Positions 1 through 31,656 of a DNA stretch of 64,000 nt are shown here, piece by piece. Under the pieces are notes generated by a model that saw only the letters and a program-made list of their open reading frames with translations, was not told the origin of the DNA and searched no databases. Positions within the stretch are counted from its first letter, which is position 1, and each line of letters opens with the position of its first letter. Source of the DNA: Acidimicrobiales bacterium (GTDB lineage: Bacteria; Actinomycetota; Acidimicrobiia; Acidimicrobiales; SZUA-35); assembly GCA_050330635.1 (NCBI GenBank), contig JBHJNQ010000046.1:2808-66807 (forward strand), read 5' to 3'. The position numbers were made by a program, and so were the translations under genes.

Positions 1-526
1 TGTCGGGCGACGGTACCTGCACGCCACCGGCCCGATCAGAGTCAAAGGACCCGGAGCGGCCGCAGGCCGTATCGAGCCAGCCATTTCTCACCCGCTGCTG
101 GCCAACCGGGAGGTCGGTGCTGGGCCGGCGGTTGAGCTCGTCGAGGACGGCCGGGTCGAACCATTTCTCCACCAGTTCCCGGCTGTCGGTCTGGAGGCAC
201 AGGTTGTCGTACTGGAGGGCGACGTCCGCCGGCGTCGGCAGGCCGGCCGCCACGGTAGGCCCGGTGGTCGTGGCGGTGGTGGCGGACGTGGCGACCGTCG
301 ACGAGGCGATCGTGGTGGTCGCCCCCGTCGTCGGGGTCGTGGCCGACGAGGCGGGTATGGCCTCGCCAGTCGTGGTCGACGCCGAGGTCGACGACGCAGC
401 CGGGTCCGTCGTCGACCCGACGGTCGACGACGTGGTGACCACGGCGGCGGTGGCACGACCAAAGTCGTCGTCCCCACCCCCGCACGCCGTGGCCAGGACG
501 GTGACGACGAGGACCCGGCGTCGCGT
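1..526 (-). CDS. putative secreted lipoprotein, partial (3' end runs off the window start); start codon unresolved
   Basis: The minus frame reads RRRVLVVTVLATAC-GGGDDDFG (lipobox LATAC), then a Thr/Ser-rich linker, then ...ALQYDNLCLQTDSRELVEKWFDPAVLDELN. An in-frame TGA lies at 544..542. The only codon at the expected Met position is ACG (526..524). The ATG at 545 is in another frame. Confidence 0.35.
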
Positions 527-667
527 ACCGGTGCCAGCTCCTCATCTCGCTCCTTCATTCGCTCGGGCGCCGAGACCGTACCCCCGACACCGGGGGATTC
601 GACGACCACCGGATGGTTCGCCCAGGGACACGGAATGTGACGCTTTCGAACGACGTAGGATCTGGCC

Positions 668-1441
668 ATGGCTGACCCGTCGTCCTCGTCCCCGCTGCCC
701 CTGCCCCGGACCGTCGTGCTCGTCCACGGCGCCTTCCACGGGGCGTGGTGCTGGGCCGGGTTGCAGGCCGCGCTCGACCGGCGCGGTGTCCCGTCGTTCG
801 CCGTCGACCTCCCGGGCCACGGGGTGTCGACCGAGCCGCTGGCCGACCTCCACGGCGACGCCGAGGCCGTGTCGGCGGTGGTGGCCCGATTGGCCGACGA
901 GGGGGCAGACGAGCTCGTCCTCGTCGGCCACTCCTACGGCGGGGCGGTGATCAGCCAGGCCGAGCTGGGGGGCCGGGTGAACCATCTCGTCTACCTGTCG
1001 GCCCTGGTGCCGGACGAGGGTCAGGACCCGTCGTCGGTCATGGCCGGCTTCCCCCCGCCGCCCACGGGGACGGCGTCGGGTGGGGCGTCGCAGGGAAGCG
1101 GGCTGTTCGTGCGCAACTCCGATGGCACCATGGGCGCCGATCCGGCGCTGGGTCGACCGGTGTTCTACAACACGTGCACGGCGGAGCAGGCGGCGGCGGC
1201 CGTGGCCCGGCTGGGCCCGCAGCGGGCCGCCACGTTCAAGCAGCCCTCGACGAGGGCCAACTGGCGGACGGTACCGTCGACCTACATCCGCTGCCTCCAG
1301 GACAAGGCGGTGCCCCTGGGTGGTCAGGACGCCATGGCCGAGCGGTGCAACGACGTGGTCGACATCGACACCGATCACTCACCGTTCCTGTGCGCCCCCG
1401 ACCGGCTGGCCGATCTGCTGGTGCCCCTGGCGGGCCGATAG
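668..1441 (+). CDS. alpha/beta-fold hydrolase (esterase-like)
   Basis: 257-aa ORF starting at ATG. The N-terminal VVLVHGAFHGAWCW and the nucleophile elbow VGHSYGG are typical of alpha/beta hydrolases. Confidence 0.85.
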   Translation: MADPSSSSPLPLPRTVVLVHGAFHGAWCWAGLQAALDRRGVPSFAVDLPGHGVSTEPLADLHGDAEAVSAVVARLADEGADELVLVGHSYGGAVISQAELGGRVNHLVYLSALVPDEGQDPSSVMAGFPPPPTGTASGGASQGSGLFVRNSDGTMGADPALGRPVFYNTCTAEQAAAAVARLGPQRAATFKQPSTRANWRTVPSTYIRCLQDKAVPLGGQDAMAERCNDVVDIDTDHSPFLCAPDRLADLLVPLAGR

Positions 1442-1463
1442 GCCCGGCCAGGGCCGGGGCCGA

Positions 1464-2357
1464 TCAGGTCGTGGCCACGGGAGCGGTGGCCTCCACCTCG
1501 CAGGCGGTGCTGAGCTGGCGCATGAGGCGACGCTGGCCCGGGTCCCAGGAGTCGCGGCGGTGCATGGTGCCGAGGGTGTCGAACATGACGAGGTCGCCGA
1601 CCTCCCAGTCGTGGGCGTAGACCCGCTCGGGGCGGGTGGCGTGGAGGTGGAGCTCCTTGAGTAGGGCGCTGCTCTCGGGCCGGTCCATGCCGACGATGCG
1701 GCGGGTGATGCCGCGCGAGACGTAGAGGAGCTCGTCGCCAGTGTCGGGGTGGCGGACCACCACGGGGTGCTCGGCCTCGGGGATGGCGGGGCGCTCGATG
1801 CCCTGGGCGGTGTCGCGCTCGACCTTGGCCTCGAAGCCCTTGTCGGGCTCGGCCATGTAGTCGGCGATGCTGTGGGTGGCCCGCAGGCCCCGGAGGCGGT
1901 CCTGGAGCTTCGGGTCGAGGGTCTCGAACGCCCGGTACATGTCGGTGAAGTAGGTGCGGGGCGGCTCGGCCGGCAGCTCGACGGCGTTGAGGAAGCTCGT
2001 CTTGCCCGGCGTGGCGACGTAGGAGTAATCGGCGTGCCATTCGAGGTCGGTGGCTCCCTCCACCCCGAGGCGGGTGCCGTCCCGGCCCCGGATGTTGGTG
2101 ACGGGCAGGATCTCCGGCAGGGCACCGGCGTTGCGGAACCACTCCGAGCCCTTGATCGGCTGACCGAAGCGCTCGACGAAGCCGACCAGCTCGTCGTCGG
2201 TCGGTTGGGGCTGGCCCCGGAACACGAGCACCCGGTGGCGGTGGAGAGCGGCCAGGATCTCGTCGCGCTCGGCGTCGTCGAGCGGCTCCGACGGCTCCCA
2301 GCCGCCGACCAGGGCTCCCAGCGGCGCATCGGGCAGGGGCGTGATCTCGAGCTGCAT
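1464..2357 (-). CDS. TauD/TfdA-family Fe(II)/2-oxoglutarate-dependent dioxygenase
   Basis: The start was trimmed to ATG at 2357 (MQLEITPL...). The motif LEWHADYSY carries the HxD iron ligands, followed by ...HRRD. The upstream 113 aa of the track ORF are low-complexity. Confidence 0.85.
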   Translation of the reverse strand: MQLEITPLPDAPLGALVGGWEPSEPLDDAERDEILAALHRHRVLVFRGQPQPTDDELVGFVERFGQPIKGSEWFRNAGALPEILPVTNIRGRDGTRLGVEGATDLEWHADYSYVATPGKTSFLNAVELPAEPPRTYFTDMYRAFETLDPKLQDRLRGLRATHSIADYMAEPDKGFEAKVERDTAQGIERPAIPEAEHPVVVRHPDTGDELLYVSRGITRRIVGMDRPESSALLKELHLHATRPERVYAHDWEVGDLVMFDTLGTMHRRDSWDPGQRRLMRQLSTACEVEATAPVATT

Positions 2358-2520
2358 GACGGGACCTCCCGGACCGGGGCAGCGCCGACCGACAGCCGAT
2401 CCGACGACGGCCCCCTCCGGCCCGACACTACCCCCGGTGGCCGGCGGCCTCCCAGACCGGGCCACCGCCGCCTCGGCGATCGGCGCCTCGCCGGCCCCGG
2501 CCGACTCCGGCTCCCTCGGG

Positions 2521-2610
2521 CGGTGGCGGGCCGAGGCCATCACGCTCATGAAACTGCTGTGGACCGGTGACCTCTCCACCTTCCGGGGCGAGTGGTACGA
2601 GGCCCAGCAC
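2521..2610 (+). pseudogene. orphan fragment resembling the mid-region of a luciferase-like (LLM) flavin/F420 oxidoreductase
   Basis: The peptide RWRAEAITLMKLLWTGDLSTFRGEWYEAQH resembles the 'LW-G-x-vsF-G-x-Y' segment of LLM enzymes. It also resembles the paralogous stretch at 3790..3880. No start and no remainder of the domain are present. Confidence 0.3.
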
Positions 2611-2823
2611 CAGCGATACCGGCACCGCCAGGCGACACCCGGCGCAGGCGATGACGGTAGACCCGGCTCACCATGGCCTCCGAGGTGCCAGCCCAATCGG
2701 CAACCCCAGCTTGACCGGCCGGCGTCGGCCTGTCACCGCTGCGACCGGTGTGAGCGGCTCGATGAATGGCTACCAGTGGCTACCAGGCTCCGGCGGGGTC
2801 TGGCACCCGCTATCGTGCCTGCC

Positions 2824-2919
2824 GGAGGTGTCCGAGCGCCTGGTGGGCTCCCCCGCCTTCAAAGCGGGTGTACGGTGCGAACCACCGTAGGCGGGTTCGA
2901 TTCCCGTCCACCTCCGCCA
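2824..2919 (+). tRNA. selC: tRNA-Sec (anticodon UCA)
   Basis: Cloverleaf read directly from the sequence. Acceptor GGAGGTG/CACCTCC followed by G-CCA. Anticodon stem CCCGC/GCGGG with loop CTTCAAA (TCA). Long 7-bp variable arm TACGGTG/CACCGTA. T-arm GCGGG-TTCGATT-CCCGT. Total length 96 nt. Confidence 0.9.
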
Positions 2920-7690: not shown

Positions 7691-9253
7691 ATGAGCTGGC
7701 AGAGCGAGCTGGATGAACTGCACCGTCGACGGGCCCTGGCCGAGGCGATGGGTGGTCCCGACTCGGTCGCCTTCCACCACGGGCGGGGGAAGCTGACGAT
7801 CCGGGAGCGCATCGACCGCCTCGAGGACCCCGGCACCTTCCACGAGGTCGGGGCCCTCACCGGGGCCCCGACGTGGGACGGCGACGGCCAACTCGCCGCC
7901 CTCCAGCCGTCACCGGTGGTGATGGGCACGGTCCGCCTCGACGGCCGCAAGGTCACCGTCGCCGGCGGCGACTTCACCATTCGGGGCGGGGCGGGCGACG
8001 CCGGCGAGCGGACCCTGACGACGAAGTGGTCGTGGATCTACCGGCACTCGCTCGACCACCGCCTGCCCCACGTCCGCCTCCTCGACTCCGCCGGGGGAAG
8101 TGTCAAGACATTCGAGAAACTGGGCCGCACCTACGTCTCCCAGACCGACGACATGTATCTGTCGACCCGCCTCATGCAGCGGGTGCCGGTGGTGAGCGCC
8201 GTGCTGGGCTCGGTGGGGGGCCTGCCCGCCGTCGACGCCTGCTTCAGCCACTTCTCGGTCATGGTCAAGGGCATCAGCCAGCTCTTCGTCGGCGGCCCAC
8301 CGGTGGTCAAGGCCGCCCTCGGTCTCGACATCACCAAGGAAGACCTGGGGGACGAGCGGACCCAGATCCCCAACGGGGTCATCGACAACTTGGCCGACAG
8401 CGAGGAGGAGGCCTTCGACCAGATCCGCCGGTTCCTGTCCTACCTCCCGGCGAGCGTGTGGGATATGGCGCCCCGGACCGAGCCGGACGACCCGCCCGAC
8501 CGGCGGGAGCAACGCCTCCTCGAGGTCATCCCCCGCAACCGGCGCCGCATCTACGACCCCTACGAGATCCTCGACGCCGTCGTCGACCGCGGGTCGTTCT
8601 TCGAGATCTCACCCCACGCCGGACGGTCGCACATCACCGGCCTGGCCCGGGTCGACGGCTATCCCGTCGGGGTCATGATCAACGACCCCAAGGTGCTCGG
8701 TGGCGGCATGGACCTCGTGGCCGGGCAGAAGGCCATGCGCCTCGTCCAGCTGTGCGACACGTTCCACCTCCCGTACGCCTGGCTCGTCGACGCCCCCGGC
8801 CTGGCCGTCGGCCCCGAGCACGAGACGGCCGGGGCCGTGCGCTACGGGGCCCGGGTGGCGTCGGCCTTCGCCGCCTCGTCGATGCCGATGATCGCCTTCC
8901 TCATGCGCCAGTGCTACGGGGTGGGCGGCGCCCTCCACTGGCGGCCCTACGACATGTACCGCCGCTACGCCTGGCCGTCGGCCCACTGGGGCTCCATGCA
9001 CATCGAGGGCGGGGCCAACGCCGCCTACCGGCGGGAGATCGACGACGCCGACGACCCGGCGGCCAAGCGGGCCGAGATCGAGGCCCGCCTCCAGGAGCTG
9101 GCCTCGCCGCTGAGAACGGCGCACGCCTTCGACATCGAGGAGATCATCGATCCTCGCGACACGCGGCCACTGTTGGCCGAGTTCGTGGAGGACGCCCAAC
9201 CGGTGCTGCGAACCCAGCTCGGTCCGACAGCGGGGGCCAGCTACCTGCCCTGA
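7691..9253 (+). CDS. acyl-CoA carboxylase-type carboxyltransferase (two-domain beta-subunit family), paralog 1
   Basis: 520 aa. Family motifs include GKLTIRERIDRLEDPGTF, GGDFTIRGG, LLDSAGG and, in the C-terminal half, LCDTFHLPYAWLVDAPGLAVG. Confidence 0.9.
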   Translation: MSWQSELDELHRRRALAEAMGGPDSVAFHHGRGKLTIRERIDRLEDPGTFHEVGALTGAPTWDGDGQLAALQPSPVVMGTVRLDGRKVTVAGGDFTIRGGAGDAGERTLTTKWSWIYRHSLDHRLPHVRLLDSAGGSVKTFEKLGRTYVSQTDDMYLSTRLMQRVPVVSAVLGSVGGLPAVDACFSHFSVMVKGISQLFVGGPPVVKAALGLDITKEDLGDERTQIPNGVIDNLADSEEEAFDQIRRFLSYLPASVWDMAPRTEPDDPPDRREQRLLEVIPRNRRRIYDPYEILDAVVDRGSFFEISPHAGRSHITGLARVDGYPVGVMINDPKVLGGGMDLVAGQKAMRLVQLCDTFHLPYAWLVDAPGLAVGPEHETAGAVRYGARVASAFAASSMPMIAFLMRQCYGVGGALHWRPYDMYRRYAWPSAHWGSMHIEGGANAAYRREIDDADDPAAKRAEIEARLQELASPLRTAHAFDIEEIIDPRDTRPLLAEFVEDAQPVLRTQLGPTAGASYLP

Positions 9254-9417
9254 GTGGGGATTGGAGCGGCACCCGGTGCCTCATCCACCAACCGGCAACT
9301 GGGCTCACCACCGCTGTCACCACTACGCTGCGGCGCGAACGGGCCCGGGCCCGACCGACGATCCGGGGGAACAGAGCAGTGCCAATCGATCCGTCGCGCG
9401 AGAGCTGGAAGCCAGGA

Positions 9418-10980
9418 ATGGGCTGGGAGGAGGCGGTCGACGAGCTGGCCTATCTCCGCTCGCTGGCCAACGAGATGGGCGGCGCCGAACGGGTCAAACG
9501 TCAACACGACGGCGGCCGCTACACGGTGCGGGAGCGGATCGACAAGATGACCGACCCCGGCACCTTCGTCGAGATGGGTCAGCTCATGGGAGGCGCCACC
9601 TACGACCGGAACGGCAACCTCGTCGACTTCACCCCCGGTGGCTACGTGATGGGCCTGGCCGAGATCGACGGGCGCCCGATCGCCATCGGTGGTGACGACT
9701 TCACCCTCTCCGGCGGCAGCCCCCACAACGTCCACAAGATGCCGCATCAGTTCGTGCAGCCCCTCGCCCTGCAGTACGGCATCCCCTACGTCCAGCTGCG
9801 GGAGGGCGTTGGTCACAGCTCCAAGTCCGACGAGGAGTCGGGACGGATGGCCCTGCCCCAGGGCGATCTGTGGCACCAGGGCGTCGAACTGCTGGCCAGG
9901 GTACCGGTGGTGTCGGGGATCCTCGGCTCCACCGCCGGGTGGCCGGCGGCGGCCGCCCTGATGGCCCACTTCACCGTCATGGTCAAGGGCAACGCCCAGG
10001 TCTTCCCGTCCGGGCCCCCCGTCGTGGAGCGGGCCATCGGCGAGACCCTCGACAAGGAGGCACTGGGCGGCACCCGGATGCACGTCCACACCAGCGGCCA
10101 GGTCGACAACGAGGCCGAAGACGAGGACGACGCCTTCGACCAGATCCGGCGTTTCCTGTCGTTCGTGCCCGACACGACCAACGACGTGGCGGCCCGGGTC
10201 GAGACCGGCGACCCACCCGACCGACGGCCCGAGCAGCTCCTGAACATCATCCCCACCAACCGGCGCCGGGGCTACGACATGCGCACGCTGATCTCCCTCG
10301 TCGTCGACAACGGCGACTTCTTCGAGATGCGGCGCCACTACGCCGGGGCCGTCATCACCGCCTTCGCCCGCCTCGACGGCTACAGCGTCGGCGTCCTGGC
10401 CAGCGACCCGATGAAGCTGGCCGGGGCCATGGACGGCGACGGGGCCGACAAGTACGCCCACTTCGTCGACCTGTGCGACGCCTTCAACCTCCCCGTCGTG
10501 ATCTTCCTCGACATGCCGGGCTTCATGCTCGGCTCCGACGCCGAACGCAAGGCCACCATGCGCCGGGGGGTCCGGGCCCTGATCGCTTCGGCCGAGGCCA
10601 AGGTGCCGAAGGTCGAGTTCAACGTGCGCAAGGCCTACGGGGTGGCGGCCGACGCCCCCAACAGCCTCGGCCTCCCCGACGGCCTCAACCTCCGTTTCGG
10701 GTGGCCGGCCGGCGAGTGGGGCGGCATCCCCATCGAGGGTGGCGTGGCCGCCGCCTACCGCCGAGAGATCGCCGCCGCCCCCGACCCCGAGGCCCACCGC
10801 GAAGCGATCGAGCAACGCCTGCTGCGCATGCGCTCCCCCATCAAGGCGGCCCAGAGCGGCGACGTCGTCGACCTCATCGACCCCCGCGACACCCGCCGCC
10901 TGGCCTGCACCTTCGTCAGGCTGGCCCAGCCGATGCTGCACCGCCTGGCCCAGCGACCGAAGCGTGCGGTCCGGCCGTGA
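9418..10980 (+). CDS. acyl-CoA carboxylase-type carboxyltransferase, paralog 2
   Basis: MGWEEAVDELAYLRSLANEMGG aligns with the paralog 1 N-terminus. Other motifs are GRYTVRERIDKMTDPGTF, GGDDFTLSGGS and LCDAFNLPVVIFLDMPGFMLG. An alternative GTG start lies at 9379. The first ~515 aa of the 1035-aa track ORF are a shadow frame. Confidence 0.9.
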   Translation: MGWEEAVDELAYLRSLANEMGGAERVKRQHDGGRYTVRERIDKMTDPGTFVEMGQLMGGATYDRNGNLVDFTPGGYVMGLAEIDGRPIAIGGDDFTLSGGSPHNVHKMPHQFVQPLALQYGIPYVQLREGVGHSSKSDEESGRMALPQGDLWHQGVELLARVPVVSGILGSTAGWPAAAALMAHFTVMVKGNAQVFPSGPPVVERAIGETLDKEALGGTRMHVHTSGQVDNEAEDEDDAFDQIRRFLSFVPDTTNDVAARVETGDPPDRRPEQLLNIIPTNRRRGYDMRTLISLVVDNGDFFEMRRHYAGAVITAFARLDGYSVGVLASDPMKLAGAMDGDGADKYAHFVDLCDAFNLPVVIFLDMPGFMLGSDAERKATMRRGVRALIASAEAKVPKVEFNVRKAYGVAADAPNSLGLPDGLNLRFGWPAGEWGGIPIEGGVAAAYRREIAAAPDPEAHREAIEQRLLRMRSPIKAAQSGDVVDLIDPRDTRRLACTFVRLAQPMLHRLAQRPKRAVRP

Positions 10981-10990
10981 CCGGCCCTGG

Positions 10991-13378
10991 ATGAGGCCGT
11001 TCCACGCCCTCGAGGTCGTCGAGGTCGCCGGGTCGATCGCCGGCGCCTACTGTGGCAAGCTCTTCGCCGACCACGGCGCCACCGTCACCCTCGTCGGCCC
11101 CTCGGCCCTGAGCGAGGCGGAGGCCGGCTACCTCCACCAGGGCAAGGCCACGGCCCCCGACCTCGATCCCGCCCTCCTGGCCCGGGCCGACGTCGTCATC
11201 GAGAGCACCGCCGACCGGCCCCTCGAACCGTTGACCGGCCTGAGTGACACCGTGGTGCGGGTGCAGGTCTCACCGTTCGGGTCGACGGGCCCCTACGCCT
11301 CATGGCGGAGCAGTGACCTCATCGACTACGCCCTGAGCGGCCACCAGTACCTCTACGGGGACCCCGAACGTGAACCGCTCCGGGGACCCCCCAACCAGCC
11401 CCGCTACGCCAGCGCCCTCTTCGCCTTCATCGGGGCCATGGTCGCCCTCCTCGAACGAGAGCGCAGCGGCTCGGGCCAGACGGTAGAGGTCGACCATCTG
11501 GCGACCATGGCCGTCCTCCACCAGTTCACCCTCCTGCGCTACACGATCGGCGGCGACGTGCTGCGCCGCATGGGTAACCGCTTCACCGGCCAGGGACACC
11601 CCAACGGCATCTTTCCCTGCGCCGACGGATGGGTCTCGATCGCCGCCCCGGCCAGCGACCAGATCGAACGCCTGCTCGGCGTGAGCGGCCTCGACCACCT
11701 GCTGGAACGACCCGACATCTCGTCGCCCATGGACTTCCAGACCTCGCCCCACGTGCTCGACGAGGCGCTGCTTCCCTGGCTGGCTGCGCAGCCCGTGGCC
11801 GACGTCGTCGAGTTGCTGCAGGCGGTGCGGGTACCGGCCGCCCCGACCACCACCATGGAGCGCCTCCTCGACGATCCCCAGCTCGCGGCCCGCCACTACT
11901 GGACCACCACCGACGACGGGCACCGCGTACCCGGCCGTCCGTTCCGCCTGAGCGGTCATCCGTGGCGGGCGACGGGCGCCCGCACCGATCGCTCCGACCC
12001 CGGGTGGTTGCACTCGACGCCGAGCGACGACCGGTCCGAGGCGGGGCCCGACGCCGGCCCTCTCGCCGGGCTGCGAGTCCTCGACCTGGCCCGGGTGTGG
12101 GCCGGACCCCTGGCGGCCCGGCTGCTGGCCGAGCTGGGGGCCGATGTGATCTGGGTCGAGGCCCCGTGGTCACGAGGACCGCGCCTGATCCCCGAGTCGG
12201 TGGTCCGGACCGTGCGCTACTACCCGGACGACGACGCCGGAGCCTGCCCCTGGAATCGCAGCGGGCACCTGGTCAAGTACTCGATCGGCAAACGATCATC
12301 GGCCATCGACCTCGGCACCGGGGCCGGCGTCGCCGCCTTCGAGCGGCTCGTCCCCTGGGCCGATGTGGTGCTCGAGAACTACAGCCCCCGGGTCATGCCC
12401 CAGTTCGGGTTGGGTGAGGAGCGGCTCCACGAGCTGAACCCGGGCCTGGTCTACGTGACCATGCCGGGCTACGGACGATCGGGGCCGGCGGAGCAGTGGC
12501 TCGCCTACGGTTCATCGGTCGACTCCCACGCTGGCCTGTCCCACCTCATCGGCTATCCCGATCAGGTCCCGTGGAAGGGCGGGATCGCCTGGCCCGACCC
12601 GATCGCCGGTCTCCACGCCGTCGGCGCCCTCCTCATCGCCCTGTGGGATCGCGGCGCCGACGGCGGCGGCGGCCTCGGTCAGACGGTCGAAGTCGCCCAG
12701 TTCGAGGCCACCACCGCCGTCGTCGGCGACCAGCTCCTCGCCGCCCAGCTCGCAGCCTCCCCACGTCACGACGAGCCGATGGTGGCCCCGCCACCGGCAA
12801 GCGAGCGGCCGGCGTCGGGCGGAGACCCCGGCGGAAACGGGGGACCGGGCAACCGCGACGCGCTGCTGGCGCCACAGGGCACCTACCGATGCCGCGGCGA
12901 CGACCGCTGGCTGTCGCTGTCGGTACTCGACGACGAGGGGTGGCGGGCCCTGTGCCACCTGGCCGGGCTGCCCGCCGAGTGGGCGGCGTGGACGGTGACC
13001 GACCGGCGGGACCACCACGACCGAATCGACCACCGACTCGGCCGGTGGACCGCCTATCTCGATCAGGTCGAGACGGCGGAGCTCCTGCAGGAGCACGGCG
13101 TGGCCGCCGGCGCCGTCCACGACGCCGCCGGCGTCCGCAACGACCGCCACCTGCTGGCCCGGGGCGCCTTCGTCACGATCGACCAGCCCGAGTTCGGCCC
13201 CTTCGTCACGCCCGCTCTCCCCCCTCGCCTGTCCCGAACCCCGACTCGGATCCGCGGCCGGGCGCCCCTGCTCGGCGAGCACAACCGCCAGGTTCTGGCC
13301 GATCTGGGTGGCCTCGACGAGGAGGAGATCACGGCCCTGGAGTCGGCCGGCGTGATCGCCGATCGTCCGCCGGGGTAG
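10991..13378 (+). CDS. tandem-duplicated family III (CaiB/BaiF) CoA-transferase, about 795 aa
   Basis: There are two complete CoA_transf_3-like halves. The N-terminal half starts ALEVVEVAGSIAGAYCGKLFADHGATV. The C-terminal half starts LAGLRVLDLARVWAGPLAARLLAELGADVIWVE and contains WPDPIAGLHA. The halves are joined by a Ser/Asp/Pro linker. Confidence 0.85.
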   Translation: MRPFHALEVVEVAGSIAGAYCGKLFADHGATVTLVGPSALSEAEAGYLHQGKATAPDLDPALLARADVVIESTADRPLEPLTGLSDTVVRVQVSPFGSTGPYASWRSSDLIDYALSGHQYLYGDPEREPLRGPPNQPRYASALFAFIGAMVALLERERSGSGQTVEVDHLATMAVLHQFTLLRYTIGGDVLRRMGNRFTGQGHPNGIFPCADGWVSIAAPASDQIERLLGVSGLDHLLERPDISSPMDFQTSPHVLDEALLPWLAAQPVADVVELLQAVRVPAAPTTTMERLLDDPQLAARHYWTTTDDGHRVPGRPFRLSGHPWRATGARTDRSDPGWLHSTPSDDRSEAGPDAGPLAGLRVLDLARVWAGPLAARLLAELGADVIWVEAPWSRGPRLIPESVVRTVRYYPDDDAGACPWNRSGHLVKYSIGKRSSAIDLGTGAGVAAFERLVPWADVVLENYSPRVMPQFGLGEERLHELNPGLVYVTMPGYGRSGPAEQWLAYGSSVDSHAGLSHLIGYPDQVPWKGGIAWPDPIAGLHAVGALLIALWDRGADGGGGLGQTVEVAQFEATTAVVGDQLLAAQLAASPRHDEPMVAPPPASERPASGGDPGGNGGPGNRDALLAPQGTYRCRGDDRWLSLSVLDDEGWRALCHLAGLPAEWAAWTVTDRRDHHDRIDHRLGRWTAYLDQVETAELLQEHGVAAGAVHDAAGVRNDRHLLARGAFVTIDQPEFGPFVTPALPPRLSRTPTRIRGRAPLLGEHNRQVLADLGGLDEEEITALESAGVIADRPPG

Positions 13379-13418
13379 GCCGGGCGAGGCCTACGTGGCA
13401 AGGCCGGGCGAGGCCTAC
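13375..13418. terminator. twin GC-rich hairpins between convergent CoA-transferase genes
   Basis: GTAGGCC-GGGCGA-GGCCTAC (13375..13394) is repeated as AGGCC-GGGCGA-GGCCT (13401..13416). Both genes' stop codons (TAG 13376..13378 and CTA 13415..13417) lie inside the repeats. Confidence 0.45.
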
Positions 13419-14623
13419 CGGTCGGCCGAGTGGAGCACCCCGGCGGCCTCGAGGGCGTCGATCGTGGCGTCGTCGTAGCCGAGCACCTCGGCCAGGACCT
13501 CCCGGTTGTGCTGGCCGAGTGTCGGGGCGTGGATGTCGGGTAGGTCGGGCTGGGCGGAGAACTTGAACGGATACCCGGCCACCACCACCTCGCCCAGTAC
13601 CGGGTCGGGTACCCGTCGCACCATCTCCCTCGCCTCGAAGTGGGGGTGGCCCACGGCGTCGGTGGGGTCGAACACCTCGCCCAGTGGCACCCGGTGCTCC
13701 AGGCAGGCCGCCACCAGCGACCCGTTGTCGGGGAACGACAGCAGCCACCCCTGCACGATCGGGATCAGCTCACCCTGGTTGTCGGCCCGATCGGGGCCGG
13801 TGGCGAAGCGGGGGTCGTCGATCAGCTCCGGCCGGCCCATGGCCCGACAGAGGTTGGGCCATTGGCGTTCCAGCACCAGGAGGTACCCGAAACCCTGAGG
13901 GAGCTCGTAGGTACCGACCGGGCAGTACAGGCCGTGGTGGCGGCCGTAGCGACCGGGCCGCACCGACCGGTCCGACATCTCGTACTGGGCCATCTGATCC
14001 TGCAGCCCGAACACGACGTCGGCCATGGCCAGGTCGATGTGCTGACCCTCCCCCGTTCGCTCCCGGTGCAGTAGGGCGTAGCCGAGGGCGGCGAAGCCGT
14101 GCACGGCGGTGGAGTTGTCGGCGACGGCGAACCCCACGGGCGTCGGCGGCCCCTGGGGATCGCCCGTCAGCGCCATCACCCCGGCGGTGGCCTGGATGAT
14201 CCCGTCGAATCCGGGCCGATCCCACCACGGGCTCGTCCGCCCGTAGGCCGACACCGACACCATGACCAGCGACGGGTTGAGCTTGCGCAGGGCGTCGTAG
14301 TCGAGGCCCCGTCGCTCCAGCACCCCGGCGGCGAAGTTCTCCACCACCACGTCGCAGTGGGGTACCAGGTCCAACAGCGTCCGCATGCCTTCCGGGGTGT
14401 TCCAGTCGAGGCACAGGCTCCGCTTTCCCCGGTTGTTCTGGATGAACACGCTGCTGCGGCCATCCTTCACCCACCGCAGGAGCCGGCTCGGGTCGCCGTC
14501 GGGAGCGAGCTCGATCTTGATGATCTCCGGGCCCAGTTCGGCCAGCAGGCGCGTGATTCCCGCCCCCGCCAGGTACTGCGAGAGGTCGAGGACGCGGTAG
14601 CCCTCCAACATCGGTCTGGTCAA
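13415..14623 (-). CDS. family III (CaiB/BaiF) CoA-transferase
   Basis: 402 aa with LEGYRVLDLSQYLAGAGITRLLAELGPEIIKIE and ...FAVADNSTAVHG. The start could be Met5 (14611). Confidence 0.9.
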   Translation of the reverse strand: MTRPMLEGYRVLDLSQYLAGAGITRLLAELGPEIIKIELAPDGDPSRLLRWVKDGRSSVFIQNNRGKRSLCLDWNTPEGMRTLLDLVPHCDVVVENFAAGVLERRGLDYDALRKLNPSLVMVSVSAYGRTSPWWDRPGFDGIIQATAGVMALTGDPQGPPTPVGFAVADNSTAVHGFAALGYALLHRERTGEGQHIDLAMADVVFGLQDQMAQYEMSDRSVRPGRYGRHHGLYCPVGTYELPQGFGYLLVLERQWPNLCRAMGRPELIDDPRFATGPDRADNQGELIPIVQGWLLSFPDNGSLVAACLEHRVPLGEVFDPTDAVGHPHFEAREMVRRVPDPVLGEVVVAGYPFKFSAQPDLPDIHAPTLGQHNREVLAEVLGYDDATIDALEAAGVLHSADR

Positions 14624-21170: not shown

Positions 21171-22223
21171 GTGGCCGAACTGCTTTTGGCGGGGGTGACC
21201 CACTACCCGCCGCTGGCCGGAATCGACGACGAGATGGCCGGGATCCACCGCCGTATGCTGGCCGATCCCGACGTGCCGGAGCACGAGAAGAACCCGGCGA
21301 ACTGGCCCGCGGCCCAACGGGCCGAGTGGGGCGACGACGAGGCCCGGTCCGCCGCCGCCGATCACCGCCGGCTCCTGCGCGCGGGGTTCGCCACCGTGCG
21401 GGCCGAGATCGAGCGGTTCGATCCCGACGCCATCCTCATCTGGGGCGACGACCAGTACGAGAACTTCACCGAGGACCTCATCCCCCCGTATGCCCTCCTG
21501 GCCTACGACGACCTGGTGGCCCGGCCCTGGATCAAGCGTCTCGCGCCCAACGCCTGGGGCGAGCCGGCCGACGCCGAGTTCGAGGTCAGGGGCCACCCCG
21601 AGCTGGCCCGGTGGCTTGCCGGAAACCTCCTCGACAACGGGATCGACGTCTCCTACGCCTACCGGCCCCGGAACCACCCCGACCTGGCCCACGCCTTCCT
21701 CAACGCCATCCTGTTCCTCGACTACGACCGTGAGGGGTTCCCGTGGCCGGTGGTGGCCATGCCGGTCAACTGCTACGGACGCCGGGTCATCTCGGCCCGG
21801 GGCACCTGGAAGCCGCTGGGTGAGGAGCTCGTGCTCGACCCCCCGTCGCCGTCACCGAGCCGGCTGATGGACGTCGGCGGAGCGGTGGCCCGGGCCCTGC
21901 AGGCCAGCCCGTGGCGGGTCGTGCTGCTGGCCTCCTCATCGTGGTCGCACGCCTTCCTCGTCGACCACAACTACCGCCTCCGGCCCGACATCCCCGCCGA
22001 TCGTCGTCTCTACGACGCCCTGGTGGCCGGCGAGTTCGGGACGTGGGCGGAAACCCCCCTGTCGTCGGTCGAGCACGCCGGCCAGCAGGAGGTCCTCAAC
22101 TGGTGGTGCCTGGCGGGGGCGGCCCGCCAGCTCGACCTCGGGGGCCCCGCCTGGTCGACGTTCATCGAGACCCAGTGCTTCAACTCCAACAAGGTGTTCG
22201 CCACCTGGGAACCCGTCGGATGA
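21171..22223 (+). CDS. class III (LigB-type) extradiol ring-cleavage dioxygenase family protein
   Basis: GTG start behind GAGGGAG. The N-terminal GVTHYPPL, then ILIWGDDQYENF, ...HAF... and ...SSSWSHAF are typical LigB-superfamily features. Confidence 0.75.
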   Translation: MAELLLAGVTHYPPLAGIDDEMAGIHRRMLADPDVPEHEKNPANWPAAQRAEWGDDEARSAAADHRRLLRAGFATVRAEIERFDPDAILIWGDDQYENFTEDLIPPYALLAYDDLVARPWIKRLAPNAWGEPADAEFEVRGHPELARWLAGNLLDNGIDVSYAYRPRNHPDLAHAFLNAILFLDYDREGFPWPVVAMPVNCYGRRVISARGTWKPLGEELVLDPPSPSPSRLMDVGGAVARALQASPWRVVLLASSSWSHAFLVDHNYRLRPDIPADRRLYDALVAGEFGTWAETPLSSVEHAGQQEVLNWWCLAGAARQLDLGGPAWSTFIETQCFNSNKVFATWEPVG

Positions 22224-23041
22224 CGGCCGACGGCACCGGCCGCCTGGCCGGCAAGGTCGCCCTCGTCACCGGCACCAGCCCCAACATCGGCGGGGTGGCC
22301 GCCTCCGGGTTCGCCGCCGAGGGGGCCCGGGTGGCGTGCAACGACCTCGACCCGGCGGTCGCCGCCGACCGGGCCGAGCGGATCACCGCCGGCGGTGGGG
22401 AGGCCATGGCCGTGCCGTGCGACGTGACCGACGAGGCCGCCGTCGACGCCATGGTGGCGGCCGTGGTCGAGCGGTGGGGCGGCGTCGACATCGTGCTCAA
22501 CAACGCCGTGCAGTTCAACGCCCGGGGCCTGCTCGACATGCCCGTAGATCAGTACCGCCGCCAGCTCGACATCATCTGCGGCGGCGCCTTCCTCGTGACC
22601 AGGGCTGCGGCCCGGGCCATGATCGAGCGGGGCCGGGGGGGCTCGATCATCAACGTGTTGTCGACGGCGGCGTGGCAGGGTCAGGCCGGCAACGTCGGGT
22701 ACTGCACCGGCAAGTCGGGCCTTATCAACTTCACCCGGTCGGTGGCGATGGAGCTCGCCCCTCACGGGATCCGGGTCAACGGGTTCACCCCCACCGCCAC
22801 CCGGCCCGACGATCCCGACCTGCGGGAGCGGTTCGACGGTCGGGCGGTGACGGCCGCCGAGGCCGGCATGGACTTCTGGAACCAGGTTCCCCTCCGCCTG
22901 CCGGCCCCGTCGGACTACGTGGCCCCCCTCGTGTTCCTGGCCTCCGACGACTCGGCCCTCATGACCGGGGGCTCGATCACCGTCGACGGGGGCGCCCTGT
23001 CGAAGTACTGGCCCCAACGCCCGGCCCGCCACGCGGGCTGA
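22220..23041 (+). CDS. short-chain dehydrogenase/reductase (SDR)
   Basis: ATGA overlap with the upstream gene. Shows LAGKVALVTGTSPNIGG and NNAV, and the catalytic YCTGK. Confidence 0.9.
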   Translation: MTADGTGRLAGKVALVTGTSPNIGGVAASGFAAEGARVACNDLDPAVAADRAERITAGGGEAMAVPCDVTDEAAVDAMVAAVVERWGGVDIVLNNAVQFNARGLLDMPVDQYRRQLDIICGGAFLVTRAAARAMIERGRGGSIINVLSTAAWQGQAGNVGYCTGKSGLINFTRSVAMELAPHGIRVNGFTPTATRPDDPDLRERFDGRAVTAAEAGMDFWNQVPLRLPAPSDYVAPLVFLASDDSALMTGGSITVDGGALSKYWPQRPARHAG

Positions 23042-23052
23042 GAGGAGGACCC

Positions 23053-31479: not shown

Positions 31480-31567
31480 GTTGTGTCTCCAACTCCTCAG
31501 TGAACCTTGTCTCGGGTCGGACAATCTCACTTAACCGGCTGCTCCGAGAGGTGGCAATGCTCCGAGT

Positions 31568-31597
31568 GTTAACGCAATGTGAATCGCGACCGTAAGA
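31568..31597. promoter_or_regulatory. three GTnAA-type hexamers at about 11-nt spacing in the glnII/glnA divergent intergenic region (candidate GlnR-type operator)
   Basis: GTTAAC (31568), GTGAAT (31579) and GTAAGA (31592) lie in the locally AT-richer 177-nt spacer. They are reminiscent of actinobacterial GlnR boxes (gTnAc-n6-GaAAc) but not an exact match. Confidence 0.25.
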
Positions 31598-31656
31598 TTC
31601 CCCGATTCGGCGCCCGTCCCGTGCCGACCGGTCGAGACCCTGGTATCACTCGAAGG

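What the first reader, a model, noticed from the sequence alone, without database searches (positions are those of the whole stretch)
7691..14623. Orphan carboxyltransferase pair wired to three family III CoA-transferase domains
Seen: two tandem, mutually diverged PccB-like carboxyltransferases (520 and 520 aa) are followed 10 nt later by a double-length CaiB/BaiF CoA-transferase. A convergent third CoA-transferase completes the set. Nowhere in the 64 kb did I see a biotin carboxylase (ATP-grasp) or a biotin carrier (AMKM) gene. Established: such carboxyltransferases normally work with BC/BCCP partners or act as the decarboxylase subunit of biotin-dependent decarboxylases. Family III transferases activate organic acids, often dicarboxylates, as CoA thioesters. 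Inference: this could be a self-contained module that activates an acid and then carboxylates, decarboxylates or transcarboxylates its CoA ester. The two paralogs could form a hetero-hexamer. The substrate is not predictable from the sequence.
Basis: partly seen in the sequence, partly recalled or inferred. Interest (0 to 1): 0.6.

Follow-up and report, generated by a model that had tools for sequence, protein, structure and literature searches.

The report
Carboxyltransferase plus CoA-transferase catabolic module
Two unusual carboxyl-transfer enzymes sit next to CoA-transfer enzymes in a gene set that recurs across marine and sponge-associated bacteria, usually with a small biotin-carrier gene that this genome lacks at that spot; I found no studied member and the substrate is unknown.

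Summary
The window holds CT1 (7691-9253), CT2 (probably 9379-10980, 533 aa), a fused double family III CoA-transferase (10991-13378) and a convergent single one (13415-14611). No biotin carboxylase (BC) or biotin carrier (BCCP) lies anywhere in the 64 kb.

The two carboxyltransferases (CTs) are 43% identical to each other. They are only 31-37% identical to solved PCC/12S-type enzymes, which share 53-62% among themselves. They belong to two sister families with invariant but non-canonical active-site loops.

Linkage to CoA-transferases is conserved. 33 of 84 CT2 loci and 13 of 81 CT1 loci have a CoA-transferase within 300 nt.

The "self-contained, biotin-free" reading is not supported. 15 of 84 CT2 loci carry a ~70-aa biotinyl-carrier gene beside CT2. 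In a close relative that gene lies between CT1 and CT2, where the window has only a 125-nt spacer. No CT2 locus has a BC within 10 kb. One CT1 locus has BC, BCCP and BioB.

CT1 and CT2 mostly occur apart, so a hetero-hexamer is not required. Only two of the three CoA-transferase domains keep the catalytic Asp.

Best reading: a CoA-transferase-fed, biotin-dependent carboxyl-transfer module whose carrier and BC act in trans. Direction and substrate are unresolved.

The parts
7691..9253 (+). CT1: 520-aa carboxyltransferase (PF01039) of a distinct 'CT1' family. Active-site loops are GSVGGLPA (aa 173-180, nt 8207-8230) and RQCYGVGGA (aa 406-414, nt 8906-8932).
   Evidence: Pfam 2.5e-79. Exact match to an Acidimicrobiales MAG protein. 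31-34% identical to PccB/12S and 58-61% to family members in other phyla. Keeps 150/150 near-invariant family columns. Loops mapped.
9254..9378 (.). CT1-CT2 spacer (125 nt). In relative L096 the equivalent spacer is about 350 nt and holds a 70-aa biotinyl-carrier (BCCP/BLAP-type) gene on the minus strand. Here that gene is absent with no recognisable remnant.
   Evidence: blastn and six-frame comparison of the window with L096. No BCCP hit anywhere in the window.
9379..10980 (+). It belongs to a highly conserved 'CT2' family. Loops are GSTAGWPA (nt 9925-9948) and RKAYGVAAD (nt 10627-10653).
   Evidence: Pfam 1.2e-96. Homologues are 72-89% identical and mostly 533 aa, in Acidimicrobiales, SAR202/Dehalococcoidia and Ca. 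Poriferisodalis. Conserved N-terminal extension. Keeps 255/258 near-invariant family columns.
10991..11968 (+). Fused CoA-transferase, N-half (aa 1-326). It is a family III fold but a pseudo-subunit: Arg138 (nt 11402-11404) replaces the catalytic Asp.
   Evidence: Alignment with E. coli Frc (Asp169) and YfdE. The position is never Asp in 120 homologues: A 83, S 11, R 7 and others. AF2 pLDDT is mostly above 90.
11969..12043 (+). Disordered linker (aa 327-351) between the two CoA-transferase halves.
   Evidence: AF2 pLDDT below 50 for residues 327-351.
12044..13378 (+). Fused CoA-transferase, C-half (aa 352-795). This is the catalytic family III domain, with Asp536 (nt 12596-12598) in 'AWPDP'. 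It is BbsF-like.
   Evidence: Asp536 is invariant in 120/120 homologues. Best sequence hit in the PDB is BbsEF 9fn0_B. Best Foldseek hit is 9fn0_D, TM 0.92 on the target, rmsd 2.5 Å.
13376..13418 (.). Two copies of an 18-19-nt palindromic unit (TAGGCCGGGCGAGGCCTAC). Each overlaps the stop codon of one of the convergent genes. Possibly a bidirectional terminator hairpin pair.
   Evidence: Read directly from the sequence. The consensus terminator scan did not flag it because there is no T-tract.
13415..14611 (-). Single family III CoA-transferase (398 aa from ATG 14611, or 402 aa from TTG 14623). The catalytic Asp165 is present (nt 14117-14119).
   Evidence: Pfam 1.7e-102. Asp aligned with Frc Asp169. 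Orthologues at 45-47% identity lie about 3 kb from CT2 in about 21 metagenomic loci.

Best explanation
The four genes are one lineage's version of a widespread, apparently uncharacterised, biotin-dependent carboxyl-transfer module fed by family III CoA-transferases.

Proposed steps:
(1) Inferred from family chemistry. The CoA-transferases use Asp536 of the fused protein's C-half and Asp165 of the single enzyme. The fused N-half is a catalytically dead partner that completes the obligate interlocked dimer. They move CoA from a donor thioester, typically succinyl-CoA for the closest solved relatives BbsEF and SUGCT, onto a (di)carboxylic acid, or release the pathway's end product.
(2) Inferred. 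CT1 and CT2 are separate PccB-like enzymes with family-specific active-site loops. Each moves a carboxyl group between the alpha-carbon of such a thioester and N1 of biotin.
(3) Shown by context in relatives. The biotin sits on a free-standing ~70-aa BLAP/BCCP-type carrier, normally encoded beside CT2.
(4) Inferred, and my committed choice. The carrier is charged by an ATP-dependent biotin carboxylase encoded elsewhere. The module would then be the beta (CT) part of one or two acyl-CoA carboxylases of unknown specificity, as in actinobacteria where many CT subunits share one alpha subunit.

In this window the carrier gene is absent from the CT1-CT2 spacer, so both carrier and BC must come in trans.

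My confidence that the module is biotin-dependent and functionally tied to the CoA-transferases is about 0.8. My confidence in the specific ATP-dependent carboxylase direction is about 0.45, and that is the figure given in the confidence field.
For: Both CTs are intact and under constraint (150/150 and 255/258 near-invariant family columns kept).

CoA-transferase linkage:
- Within 300 nt in 33/84 CT2 loci and 13/81 CT1 loci, about 9-fold and 3-fold above the local background.
- The same order, CT2 then two CoA-transferase units, is seen fused in GC 0.65-0.71 Acidimicrobiia-type loci and split in SAR202-type and GC 0.44 loci.
- Fused CoA-transferases also sit next to CT1 in Ca. Multivorans, Thermoanaerobaculia, Holophagales, Ca. 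Entotheonella and Hyphomonadaceae.

Biotin dependence:
- A ~70-aa PF00364 protein with an ESMKM or EAMKM motif lies beside CT2 in 15/84 loci. These fall in two compositional groups and three gene orders.
- It lies between CT1 and CT2 in L096.
- Its best solved relative is B. subtilis BLAP (1z6h, 3e-13).

ATP-dependent direction:
- L067 encodes a stand-alone BC (528 aa) and BCCP, divergent from fused CoA-transferase, CT1 and Amidohydro_2, with BioB adjacent.
- CT1 lies beside, or within a few kb of, single-chain BC-BCCP-CT proteins in L034, L035 (22 nt) and L062.
- A 51%-identical fused CoA-transferase lies 2.4 kb from such a protein.
- Sharing of BC subunits among many CT genes is described for mycobacteria (PMC4347857 abstract).
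Against: No BC lies within 10 kb of any of 84 CT2 loci, although 15 of them carry the carrier. My understanding is that in canonical split carboxylases the BC and BCCP genes are usually adjacent or fused, so this pattern fits a BC-independent enzyme (transcarboxylase or decarboxylase) at least as well.

The window has neither carrier nor BC, and I could not search the rest of the genome.

The active-site loops depart from the canonical motifs: AGG->AG[LWA]P, YGGAY->YGVA[GA], DSGGAR->xxxG[GH]S. Altered chemistry therefore cannot be excluded.

About half of the CT1 loci, and about a third of the CT2 loci, show no CoA-transferase within 10 kb, so the coupling is frequent but not obligatory.

No substrate-defining neighbour is conserved.
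Confidence: 0.45

Rival explanations
1. ATP-independent acyl-CoA:acyl-CoA transcarboxylase. CT2 strips the carboxyl from one malonyl-type thioester, made by a CoA-transferase from a free dicarboxylate, onto the small biotin carrier. CT1, or a housekeeping CT, passes it to a second acyl-CoA. The energy of the carboxyl bond is conserved without ATP.
For: BCCP is present without BC in 15/84 CT2 loci, and none of the 84 has a BC within 10 kb. In the window's closest lineage two unlike CTs flank or adjoin one carrier: L096 has CT1-BCCP-CT2, and L091/L095 have BCCP-CT2-CoA-transferase plus a CT1-like gene. Tandem unlike CT pairs without BC recur (L005, L077, L183). There is a precedent in principle: the P. 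shermanii transcarboxylase uses a PF01039 12S subunit plus a 1.3S carrier, and both appear among the PDB hits.
Against: Most CT2 loci, including those with the carrier, have only one CT. I know of no described enzyme with two PF01039 CTs sharing a carrier. The window lacks the carrier. L067 has a BC next to the same type of carrier.
Confidence: 0.2
2. CoA-transferase/decarboxylase cycle with the logic of Frc/Oxc or the succinate-to-propionate route. A dicarboxylate is activated by CoA transfer from the product thioester. The CT with biotin removes the carboxyl as CO2. The product thioester then primes the next round, so nothing is carboxylated overall.
For: Family III transferases paired with a decarboxylase are established for oxalate (E. 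coli frc-oxc are adjacent). The CT fold works in the decarboxylating direction in Mmd/Gcd enzymes (PDB hits 1x0u and 3gf3). No BC is nearby.
Against: From general knowledge, known biotin decarboxylases need a membrane beta subunit to discharge carboxybiotin. No recurrent membrane-protein neighbour emerged from the neighbour clustering. Uncatalysed decay of carboxybiotin is slow.
Confidence: 0.12
3. One reading: a self-contained, biotin-independent module in which the CTs have become biotin-free (de)carboxylases like MdcD/MdcE.
For: There is no carrier or BC in 64 kb. The active-site loops are non-canonical. CT1 gives a weak hit to the biotin-independent malonate decarboxylase beta model (27.5 bits, E 1.5e-6).
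Against: That hit is far below the cutoff of 228 bits. A dedicated biotinyl carrier is encoded beside orthologues that are 75-86% identical. BioB, BC and BCCP lie beside a CT1 orthologue. G182, G418, A420 and R414 equivalents are retained.
Confidence: 0.05
4. Ordinary housekeeping PccB/AccD beta subunits that merely happen to lie near members of an expanded CoA-transferase family, with no functional coupling.
For: Family III CoA-transferases are heavily expanded in SAR202 and similar genomes (PMC5395668). About half of the CT1 loci have no CoA-transferase nearby. Public annotations call these proteins 'acyl-CoA carboxylase subunit beta'.
Against: Identity to characterised PCC/12S/ACC subunits is only 31-37%, while those share 53-62% across bacteria and archaea. 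Immediate adjacency is 3- to 9-fold above the local background. The gene order is conserved in lineages with GC from 0.43 to 0.71. Gaps of 10-15 nt, or overlaps, indicate operons.
Confidence: 0.05
5. A decaying remnant. After loss of the carrier gene the cluster is non-functional in this organism.
For: The BCCP gene present in relatives is missing from the spacer.
Against: All four ORFs are full length. CT1 and CT2 keep essentially all family-invariant residues, and the fused CoA-transferase keeps Asp536. Codon usage is typical of the genome. Many CT2 loci also lack an adjacent carrier.
Confidence: 0.05

Closest known systems
Propionyl-CoA carboxylase beta subunit / transcarboxylase 12S (S. 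coelicolor PccB 1XNV, P. shermanii 12S 1ON3, T. maritima 1VRG)
   Same: Same PF01039 two-lobed ~520-aa architecture over the full length. Equivalents of G182, G418, A420, R414 and Y417 are retained. CT2 even keeps the Asp at the PccB D422 specificity position. The families are associated with a biotinyl carrier in relatives.
   Different: Only 31-37% identical, while the reference set shares 53-62%. The canonical loops are replaced by family-invariant variants: GPCAGGAVYSP becomes GSVAG[L/W/A]PA, YGGAY becomes YGVA[G/A], and DSGGARIQEG becomes D[AS]xGGSV[KR]TG or EGVGHSSKxG. There is no adjacent alpha subunit, and the genes are coupled to CoA-transferases.
Methylmalonyl-CoA:pyruvate transcarboxylase (12S + 5S + 1.3S)
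   Same: A PF01039 CT encoded with a small free-standing biotin carrier and no BC. The carrier of relatives also matches the 1.3S subunit (1dcz, 4e-6).
   Different: No 5S (pyruvate carboxyltransferase) partner was seen among recurrent neighbours. Any second CT here would be another PF01039 enzyme. The carrier is absent from this window.
Bacillus subtilis BLAP (1Z6H). From memory, it is encoded as yngHB in the yng cluster with YngE (CT) and YngH (BC).
   Same: The small carrier of relatives is most similar to BLAP. L067 shows the same split layout of BC, small carrier and CT.
   Different: From memory, the yng cluster uses an acyl-CoA synthetase rather than family III CoA-transferases and has its BC adjacent. 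That was not tested here.
Mycobacterial acyl-CoA carboxylases with shared alpha subunits and mixed AccD4/AccD5 CT assemblies (PDB 9t97; PMC4347857)
   Same: Multiple PccB-like CT genes encoded away from the BC-BCCP alpha subunit. Two unlike CTs are deposited in one PDB entry (9t97 chains D4a and D5a).
   Different: CT1 and CT2 score only 190-240 bits against AccD4/AccD5. The carrier here is a free 70-aa protein rather than a domain of the alpha subunit. CoA-transferase coupling is not a feature of the mycobacterial systems.
[quoted passage not shown]
   Same: Best sequence and structure match of the fused protein. BbsEF is built from two different family III subunits, which is the arrangement that the fusion hard-wires. 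It acts on a substituted dicarboxylate with succinyl-CoA as donor (PMC10818641).
   Different: 29% identity. The two subunits are fused here. The N-half lacks the catalytic Asp in the whole fused family. There are no bbs beta-oxidation genes in the window.
DddD, DMSP CoA-transferase/lyase
   Same: Also a single polypeptide with two tandem CaiB-like domains (PMC7174347). It is found in marine bacteria, and SAR202 CaiB paralogues have been compared with it (PMC5395668).
   Different: No sequence comparison could be made because no DddD sequence was available. None of the loci examined showed ddd-type neighbours, that is a BCCT transporter or DddB/DddC-type genes. CT linkage is not described for dddD.
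Formyl-CoA transferase / oxalyl-CoA decarboxylase (frc-oxc)
   Same: A family III CoA-transferase encoded next to the enzyme that removes or adds a carboxyl on its thioester product. The pathway logic is comparable.
   Different: Oxc is a ThDP enzyme, not a biotin-linked CT. Identity to Frc is 25-33%.

Membership tests
Carboxyltransferase domain family (PF01039) of biotin-dependent enzymes | Full-length match to the Carboxyl_trans profile, with N and C lobes in one ~520-aa chain | tested here: met
   CT1 covers profile positions 2-471 of 493 (2.5e-79). CT2 covers 1-477 of 493 (1.2e-96).
Carboxyltransferase domain family (PF01039) of biotin-dependent enzymes | Two backbone oxyanion holes (PccB G182-G183 and G419-A420, residue roles recalled from the PccB structural literature) | tested here: inconclusive
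   G182 and A420 equivalents are kept. G183 becomes L (CT1) or W/A (CT2), followed by an invariant Pro. G419 becomes Val in both families. Backbone NH groups could still serve, but sequence alone cannot decide.
Carboxyltransferase domain family (PF01039) of biotin-dependent enzymes | Works with a biotinylated carrier | tested here: inconclusive
   No carrier in the window. A carrier gene is adjacent to orthologues in 15/84 CT2 loci and in L067, L091 and L096 for CT1. This is genomic context only, with no biochemistry.
Characterised PCC-beta / AccD5 / 12S / MmdA clade | Sequence placement inside the clade (curated model cutoff, or identity comparable with that among members) | tested here: not met
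   TIGR01117 scores 293 and 357 bits against a cutoff of 998.8. Identity is 31-37% against 53-62% among members.
Characterised PCC-beta / AccD5 / 12S / MmdA clade | Encoded with, or known to use, a BC-BCCP alpha subunit | tested here: not met
   No BC or BCCP in 64 kb. BC lies within 10 kb in 0/84 CT2 loci and 6/81 CT1 loci, mostly as part of another complete carboxylase. Use of a distant alpha subunit cannot be tested here.
MCC/GCC beta subunits (gamma-carboxylating) | Closer similarity to MCC/GCC beta than to PCC beta | tested here: not met
   MCC and GCC structures score 112-167 bits, against 250-300 bits for the PCC/12S type.
Biotin-independent malonate decarboxylase MdcD/MdcE | Match to the curated MdcD (beta) model | tested here: not met
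   NF005530 scores 27.5 bits against a cutoff of 228 for CT1. CT2 gives no hit.
Transcarboxylase (EC 2.1.3.1 type) | 12S-like CT plus small free biotin carrier plus 5S pyruvate-side CT, with no BC | tested here: inconclusive
   The CT is present. The carrier is present in relatives only. No BC is nearby. No 5S-like partner appeared among recurrent neighbours, but 5S was not searched for with a dedicated query.
Na+-translocating biotin decarboxylases (Mmd/Gcd/Oad) | Membrane beta subunit encoded with the CT and carrier | tested here: inconclusive
   No recurrent membrane-protein cluster was found next to CT1 or CT2 in 165 loci. No dedicated OadB/MmdB query was available.
Family III (CaiB/BaiF/Frc) CoA-transferases | PF02515 fold | tested here: met
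   Fused protein 2.3e-137 in two stretches. Single enzyme 1.7e-102. AF2 model pLDDT 88.9 and pTM 0.92. Foldseek TM 0.92 to BbsF and 0.81-0.89 to SUGCT, Frc and YfdW.
Family III (CaiB/BaiF/Frc) CoA-transferases | Catalytic Asp (Frc Asp169) that forms the acyl-aspartyl and CoA-thioester intermediates | tested here: met
   Present in the C-half (Asp536, 120/120 homologues) and in the single enzyme (Asp165). Absent from the N-half (Arg138, never Asp in 120 homologues). Two of three domains therefore qualify.
Family III (CaiB/BaiF/Frc) CoA-transferases | Interlocked dimer of two chains | tested here: inconclusive
   A pTM of 0.92 for the whole 795-aa chain with a disordered linker suggests a fixed intramolecular pseudo-dimer. 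Coordinates could not be inspected for interlocking.
DddD (DMSP CoA-transferase/lyase) | Orthology to characterised DddD, and ddd gene neighbourhood | not tested
Only the two-CaiB-domain architecture is shared. The best plasmid-borne fused homologues are at most 31% identical and are annotated only as 'CoA transferase'.

The most novel reading that the evidence does not exclude
The window's lineage encodes a new kind of biotin enzyme: an ATP-independent acyl-CoA:acyl-CoA transcarboxylase. Two different PF01039 carboxyltransferases (CT1 and CT2) would share one free 70-aa biotin carrier, and family III CoA-transferases would load and unload the free acids. Oligotrophic marine bacteria could then strip carboxyl groups from carboxyl-rich organic acids and reuse them without spending ATP.
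Probability: 0.2. Interest if true: 0.8.

Novelty: new variant of a known kind. Interest (0 to 1): 0.55.

Why it matters
CT1 and CT2 represent two large families for which I found no characterised member. The genome collection alone returned 578 confirmed relatives from a capped candidate list. CT2 is 72-89% identical between Acidimicrobiia-type and SAR202-type loci. These families are currently auto-annotated as 'acyl-CoA carboxylase beta' or 'methylmalonyl-CoA decarboxylase alpha', yet they lie well outside the characterised clades and have their own invariant active-site loops.

Their recurrent wiring to heteromeric or fused family III CoA-transferases and to a free biotin carrier, without an adjacent biotin carboxylase, defines a testable module. 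The host organisms (SAR202, marine Acidimicrobiia, sponge symbionts) are thought to degrade recalcitrant, carboxyl-rich dissolved organic matter.

Working out the substrate and the direction of the reaction would fill a gap in marine carbon-cycle biochemistry. If the reaction proves BC-independent, it would add a new architecture to the biotin enzyme repertoire.

Tried and rejected
- BC/BCCP in the window: motif scans, tblastn with E. coli AccB/AccC and with a relative's BCCP, and Pfam on 40 genes all found nothing.
- Small epsilon-like subunit next to the CTs: clustering of 45-130-aa ORFs within 500 nt of CT1/CT2 in about 165 loci found only the BCCP and shadow ORFs. The 78-84-aa ORF upstream of CT1 is not conserved.
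- Riboswitch or other RNA element upstream of the cluster: Rfam at gathering thresholds found only two tRNAs, far from the cluster. No sigma-70-like promoter was found.
- Substrate inference from neighbours: recurrent neighbours are generic catabolic families, namely crotonase, SDR, NMO-like, DsbA/HCCA-isomerase-like, MR/MLE enolase, Amidohydro_2/3, BVMO, hydantoinase/oxoprolinase and Thr aldolase. They differ between lineages and give no coherent pathway.
- Other biotin genes: BioB appears only in L067, and no BirA lies near any locus.
- Cultured or annotated examples: plasmid-borne fused CoA-transferases are at most 31% identical and have no CT neighbour.
- Literature: eight full-text searches found no paper describing a CT plus family III CoA-transferase plus BCCP module.
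- Rejected readings: the pair as an ordinary PccB, membership of MdcD/E or MCC/GCC, and three active CoA-transferase sites.

Full report
**Source and gene calls.** The window has about 71% G+C. It matches, protein for protein, a 172-kb contig of an Acidimicrobiales MAG from a stromatolite metagenome. A codon-usage gene caller trained on the window, and the public gene calls on the same contig, agree on four genes in the flagged interval:
- CT1, 7691-9253 (+, 520 aa).
- CT2, ending at 10980 (+).
- A 795-aa protein, 10991-13378 (+).
- A convergent gene of about 400 aa, 13415-14611/14623 (-).

**Domain content.** Pfam gives PF01039 for CT1 (2.5e-79) and CT2 (1.2e-96). It gives two PF02515 stretches in the 795-aa protein (2.3e-137) and one in the convergent gene (1.7e-102). 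CT1 and CT2 are 43% identical.

**CT2 start.** CT2 very probably starts at GTG 9379, giving 533 aa. Most homologues have that length and share the N-terminal 'VPxDPxRxxWKPGM', which the window also encodes.

**No BC or BCCP in the window.** This absence holds up to every test I could run:
- tblastn with E. coli AccB/AccC.
- tblastn with a relative's carrier.
- Motif scans in six frames.
- Pfam on 40 window genes.

The flanking genes are unrelated: MarP-type protease, nitroreductase, SnoaL, sigma factors, a Rieske dioxygenase set, GlnA, GDH, SerRS and SelA/SelB. The four genes therefore form a compact island.

**What the carboxyltransferases are.**
- Against solved structures, both score only 258-301 bits to the best hits (T. 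maritima PCC beta, 12S, archaeal CT). They score less to AccD5, AccD4, LCC, MCC, GCC and GcdA.
- In an all-against-all comparison, the PCC/12S/archaeal references share 53-62% identity among themselves. CT1 and CT2 share 31-37% with them, 41-44% with each other, 58-61% within the CT1 family and 74-79% within the CT2 family.
- The curated mmdA model scores 293 and 357 bits against a cutoff of 998.8.

They are thus two sister families outside every characterised clade. Mapping onto PccB numbering shows that each family has its own invariant versions of the three active-site loops:

| PccB loop | CT1 family | CT2 family |
|---|---|---|
| GPCAGGAVYSP | GSVAGLPAV | GSVAG(A/W)PAA |
| RKAFGGAYD | RQxYGVAGG | RK(S/A)YGVAAD |
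| DSGGARIQEG | D(A/S)xGGSV(K/R)TG | EGVGHSSKxG |

Equivalents of G182, G418, A420, R414 and Y417 are kept. The window's copies retain 150/150 (CT1) and 255/258 (CT2) near-invariant family columns. They look functional rather than decaying.

**Distribution.** CT1 relatives are very common. The best 80 are 57-80% identical. They come from Acidimicrobiia, Dehalococcoidia/Tepidiformales, Pseudomonadales (including cultured Kineobactrum sediminis), Thermoanaerobaculia, Holophagales, Ca. Multivorans and Ca. Entotheonella. CT2 relatives are 72-89% identical and were found in Acidimicrobiales, SAR202/Dehalococcoidia, Ca. Poriferisodalis and many marine metagenome contigs.

**Linkage to CoA-transferases.** I annotated 81 CT1 loci and 84 CT2 loci by tblastn with the window's proteins plus E. 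coli AccB/AccC and a relative's carrier.

| Feature | CT2 loci (n=84) | CT1 loci (n=81) |
|---|---|---|
| CoA_transf_3 gene within 300 nt | 33 | 13 |
| CoA_transf_3 gene within 10 kb | 56 | 29 |
| Small BCCP within 10 kb | 15 | 4 |
| BC within 10 kb | 0 | 6 |

- Relative to the density of such genes 4-10 kb away, the adjacent slot is enriched about 9-fold for CT2 and about 3-fold for CT1. The loci are phylogenetically related, so this is indicative only.
- The gene order is what convinces. In SAR202-type loci, CT2 is followed after 15 nt by two overlapping CoA-transferase genes of 397 and 401 aa. That is the split form of the window's fused gene.
- In GC 0.44 loci the order is CoAT-CoAT-BCCP-CT2-CoAT-CoAT.
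- In GC 0.65-0.68 loci it is BCCP (divergent), CT2, then the fused CoA-transferase.
- Fused 780-800-aa CoA-transferases also sit next to lone CT1 genes in several phyla.
- Orthologues of the window's single CoA-transferase (45-47% identical) lie about 3 kb from CT2 in about 21 loci. That region also holds housekeeping genes such as infA, so I give this less weight.

**The biotin carrier, the main new finding.**
- A ~70-aa protein with an ESMKM or EAMKM motif lies directly beside CT2 in 15 of 84 loci. Pfam confirms it as Biotin_lipoyl (2.6e-19; 2.6e-17).
- These loci fall in two compositional groups and three different gene orders.
- Its best solved relative is the B. subtilis biotin/lipoyl attachment protein (1z6h, 3e-13). 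PCC alpha carrier domains and the transcarboxylase 1.3S subunit follow.
- In L096, whose CT1 and CT2 are 81% and 83% identical to the window's, the carrier gene lies on the opposite strand between CT1 and CT2. The window aligns with L096 up to the CT1 stop and again from the CT2 start. Its spacer is 125 nt instead of about 350 nt, with no remnant of the carrier.
- The three independent assemblies of the source sample agree on this layout.
- The chemistry of these families is therefore almost certainly biotin-dependent. This genome has lost, or relocated, the carrier gene.

**Biotin carboxylase.**
- None of the 84 CT2 loci has an AccC-like gene within 10 kb. The same query readily found BCs at 37-45% identity in six CT1 loci.
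- Of those six, three are single-chain BC-BCCP-CT proteins of about 1130 aa, resembling the LCC type. They lie next to or within a few kb of CT1, including one 22 nt downstream in L035.
- One locus (L067, Hyphomonadaceae) has a stand-alone 528-aa BC and a 67-aa carrier. These are divergent from fused CoA-transferase, CT1 and Amidohydro_2, with biotin synthase BioB next door.
- At least one CT1 orthologue is therefore encoded with everything an ATP-dependent carboxylase needs.
- The CT2-plus-carrier sets consistently lack a BC. That is the layout of transcarboxylases and biotin decarboxylases.
- I could not search whole genomes, so BC in trans can be neither shown nor excluded. Sharing of BC subunits among many CT genes is established in mycobacteria (PMC4347857).

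**Do CT1 and CT2 belong together?**
- Only the window and three related loci (L091, L095, L096) carry both. About 96% of loci have one family without the other. Each enzyme must therefore be able to work alone, and a CT1/CT2 hetero-hexamer is not required.
- On the other hand, tandem pairs of unlike CTs recur around CT1 in this Acidimicrobiales group. L005 and L183/184 have a third type, CT3, 27 nt upstream of CT1 in a Rieske-BVMO-CT3-CT1 operon. L077 has two CT1-like genes.
- A two-CT complex or relay therefore remains possible in this lineage.

**The CoA-transferases.**
- Alignment with E. coli Frc (catalytic Asp169) and YfdE shows the Asp in the C-half of the fused protein (Asp536), in the single enzyme (Asp165), and in both members of the split pairs. 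The fused N-half has Arg138 instead.
- Across 120 fused homologues (46-100% identical), Asp536 is invariant and the N-half position is never Asp.
- The fusion therefore carries one active site, plus a dead partner that presumably completes the obligate family III dimer.
- An AlphaFold2 model is confident (pLDDT 88.9, pTM 0.92) and has a disordered linker at residues 327-351.
[quoted passage not shown] Human succinyl-CoA:glutarate CoA-transferase and the formyl-CoA transferases follow. All of these act on dicarboxylates.
- DddD is another known two-CaiB-domain protein, but I had no sequence to compare.
- Fused homologues below about 52% identity are no longer consistently next to CTs. Plasmid-borne ones at about 30% identity have no CT neighbour.

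**Mechanism.**
- What is shown: intact genes; family placement; conserved adjacency of CT to CoA-transferase and of CT2 to the carrier; loss of the carrier gene here; one active site per fused CoA-transferase.
- What is inferred: the CoA-transferases make or consume the thioester on which the CTs act, and the CTs move CO2 between its alpha-carbon and biotin on the small carrier.
- For direction I commit, at about 0.45, to ATP-dependent carboxylation with BC and, in this genome, the carrier supplied in trans. This rests on L067, on the LCC-type neighbours and on the actinobacterial precedent.
- The main rival, at about 0.2, is an ATP-independent transcarboxylase in which two PF01039 CTs share the carrier. 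It fits the BC-less carrier-plus-CT loci and the CT1-BCCP-CT2 arrangement.
- A CoA-transferase/decarboxylase cycle (about 0.12) is a further option.
- Three other readings are unlikely, at about 0.05 each: a biotin-independent module, chance juxtaposition of ordinary PccB genes, and a decaying remnant.
- No neighbour set is conserved enough to name a substrate.

**Novelty and literature.** Eight full-text searches found no description of a CT plus family III CoA-transferase plus small-carrier module. The SAR202 literature notes the expansion of CaiB paralogues but does not connect them with carboxyltransferases. All components belong to known superfamilies, so this is not categorically new. 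It is a new variant: two uncharacterised CT families with altered invariant active-site loops, recurrently wired to heteromeric or fused CoA-transferases and to a free carrier, usually without a BC.

**Verdict.** Interest is moderate at 0.55. It would be higher if the BC-independent reading proves right.

Noticed in passing
window 76-2919: An integrated mobile element lies next to a selenocysteine tRNA. It comprises Rep-like (REP_ORF2-G2P/Integrase_N_phage), HTH_17 (Xis-like) and a tyrosine integrase (about 1612-2742 in the public gene calls). The tRNA-Sec is at 2824-2919. My codon-usage caller mis-called this region, which suggests atypical composition.
   Followed up: partly
window 43948-46868 and 2824-2919: selA and selB (selenocysteine synthase and elongation factor) lie about 41 kb from the tRNA-Sec gene, which is itself the apparent integration site of the element above.
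   Followed up: no
window 13376-13418: A palindromic 18-19-nt unit (TAGGCCGGGCGAGGCCTAC) occurs twice in tandem. Each copy supplies the stop codon of one of the two convergent CoA-transferase genes.
   Followed up: no
window 21195-24938: An aromatic-ring oxidation set: a LigB-like extradiol dioxygenase, an SDR, and Rieske ring-hydroxylating alpha and beta subunits. A MDMPI_N protein (28717-29385) and an AraC regulator (29474-30352) lie about 4 kb downstream.
   Followed up: no
window 30466-32988: Two divergently transcribed glutamine synthetase paralogues. One (337 aa, minus strand) matches only part of the catalytic-domain profile.
   Followed up: no
L067 2533-13265 (Hyphomonadaceae MAG): The only locus with a complete set: NMO-like gene, LacI regulator, stand-alone BC (528 aa) and 67-aa carrier, divergent from fused CoA-transferase, CT1 and Amidohydro_2. 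Biotin synthase BioB (56% identical to E. coli BioB) follows directly.
   Followed up: yes
L183/L184 5458-11560: In an 80%-identical CT1 relative the operon is Rieske (LigXa-like), Baeyer-Villiger-type monooxygenase, a third CT type (521 aa), then CT1. No CoA-transferase, carrier or BC lies within 10 kb.
   Followed up: partly
L095 15217-20741; also L092 and L089: A fused hydantoinase A/B (oxoprolinase/acetone-carboxylase family, 1288 aa) lies directly downstream of a CT1-like gene. Hydantoinase A/B genes also occur near a fused CoA-transferase with CT gene fragments in L092, and near CT2 in L089.
   Followed up: no
L034, L035, L062, L178/L179: Single-chain BC-BCCP-CT proteins of about 1130 aa, resembling the LCC type, sit next to or within a few kb of CT1 orthologues or a fused CoA-transferase. 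These genomes therefore combine stand-alone CTs with complete single-chain carboxylases.
   Followed up: partly
CT1 loci of Pseudomonadales (e.g. L021 8749-9969; L050 7973-8659): In gammaproteobacteria CT1 has no CoA-transferase nearby. Instead it recurs with an NMO-like 409-aa gene about 20 nt upstream (12 loci) and a DsbA/HCCA-isomerase-like 228-aa gene (16 loci). Both names are by eye from the sequences; only the separate 332-aa gene in L067 was confirmed as NMO by Pfam.
   Followed up: no
About 28 CT2 metagenome loci (e.g. L144, L154): A second conserved CT2 context has an Amidohydro_3-like 557-aa gene directly upstream and a threonine-aldolase-like gene downstream, with a BVMO, a crotonase and acyl-CoA dehydrogenases nearby. 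No adjacent CoA-transferase pair or carrier is present. The names are by eye from the sequences and were not confirmed by Pfam.
   Followed up: no
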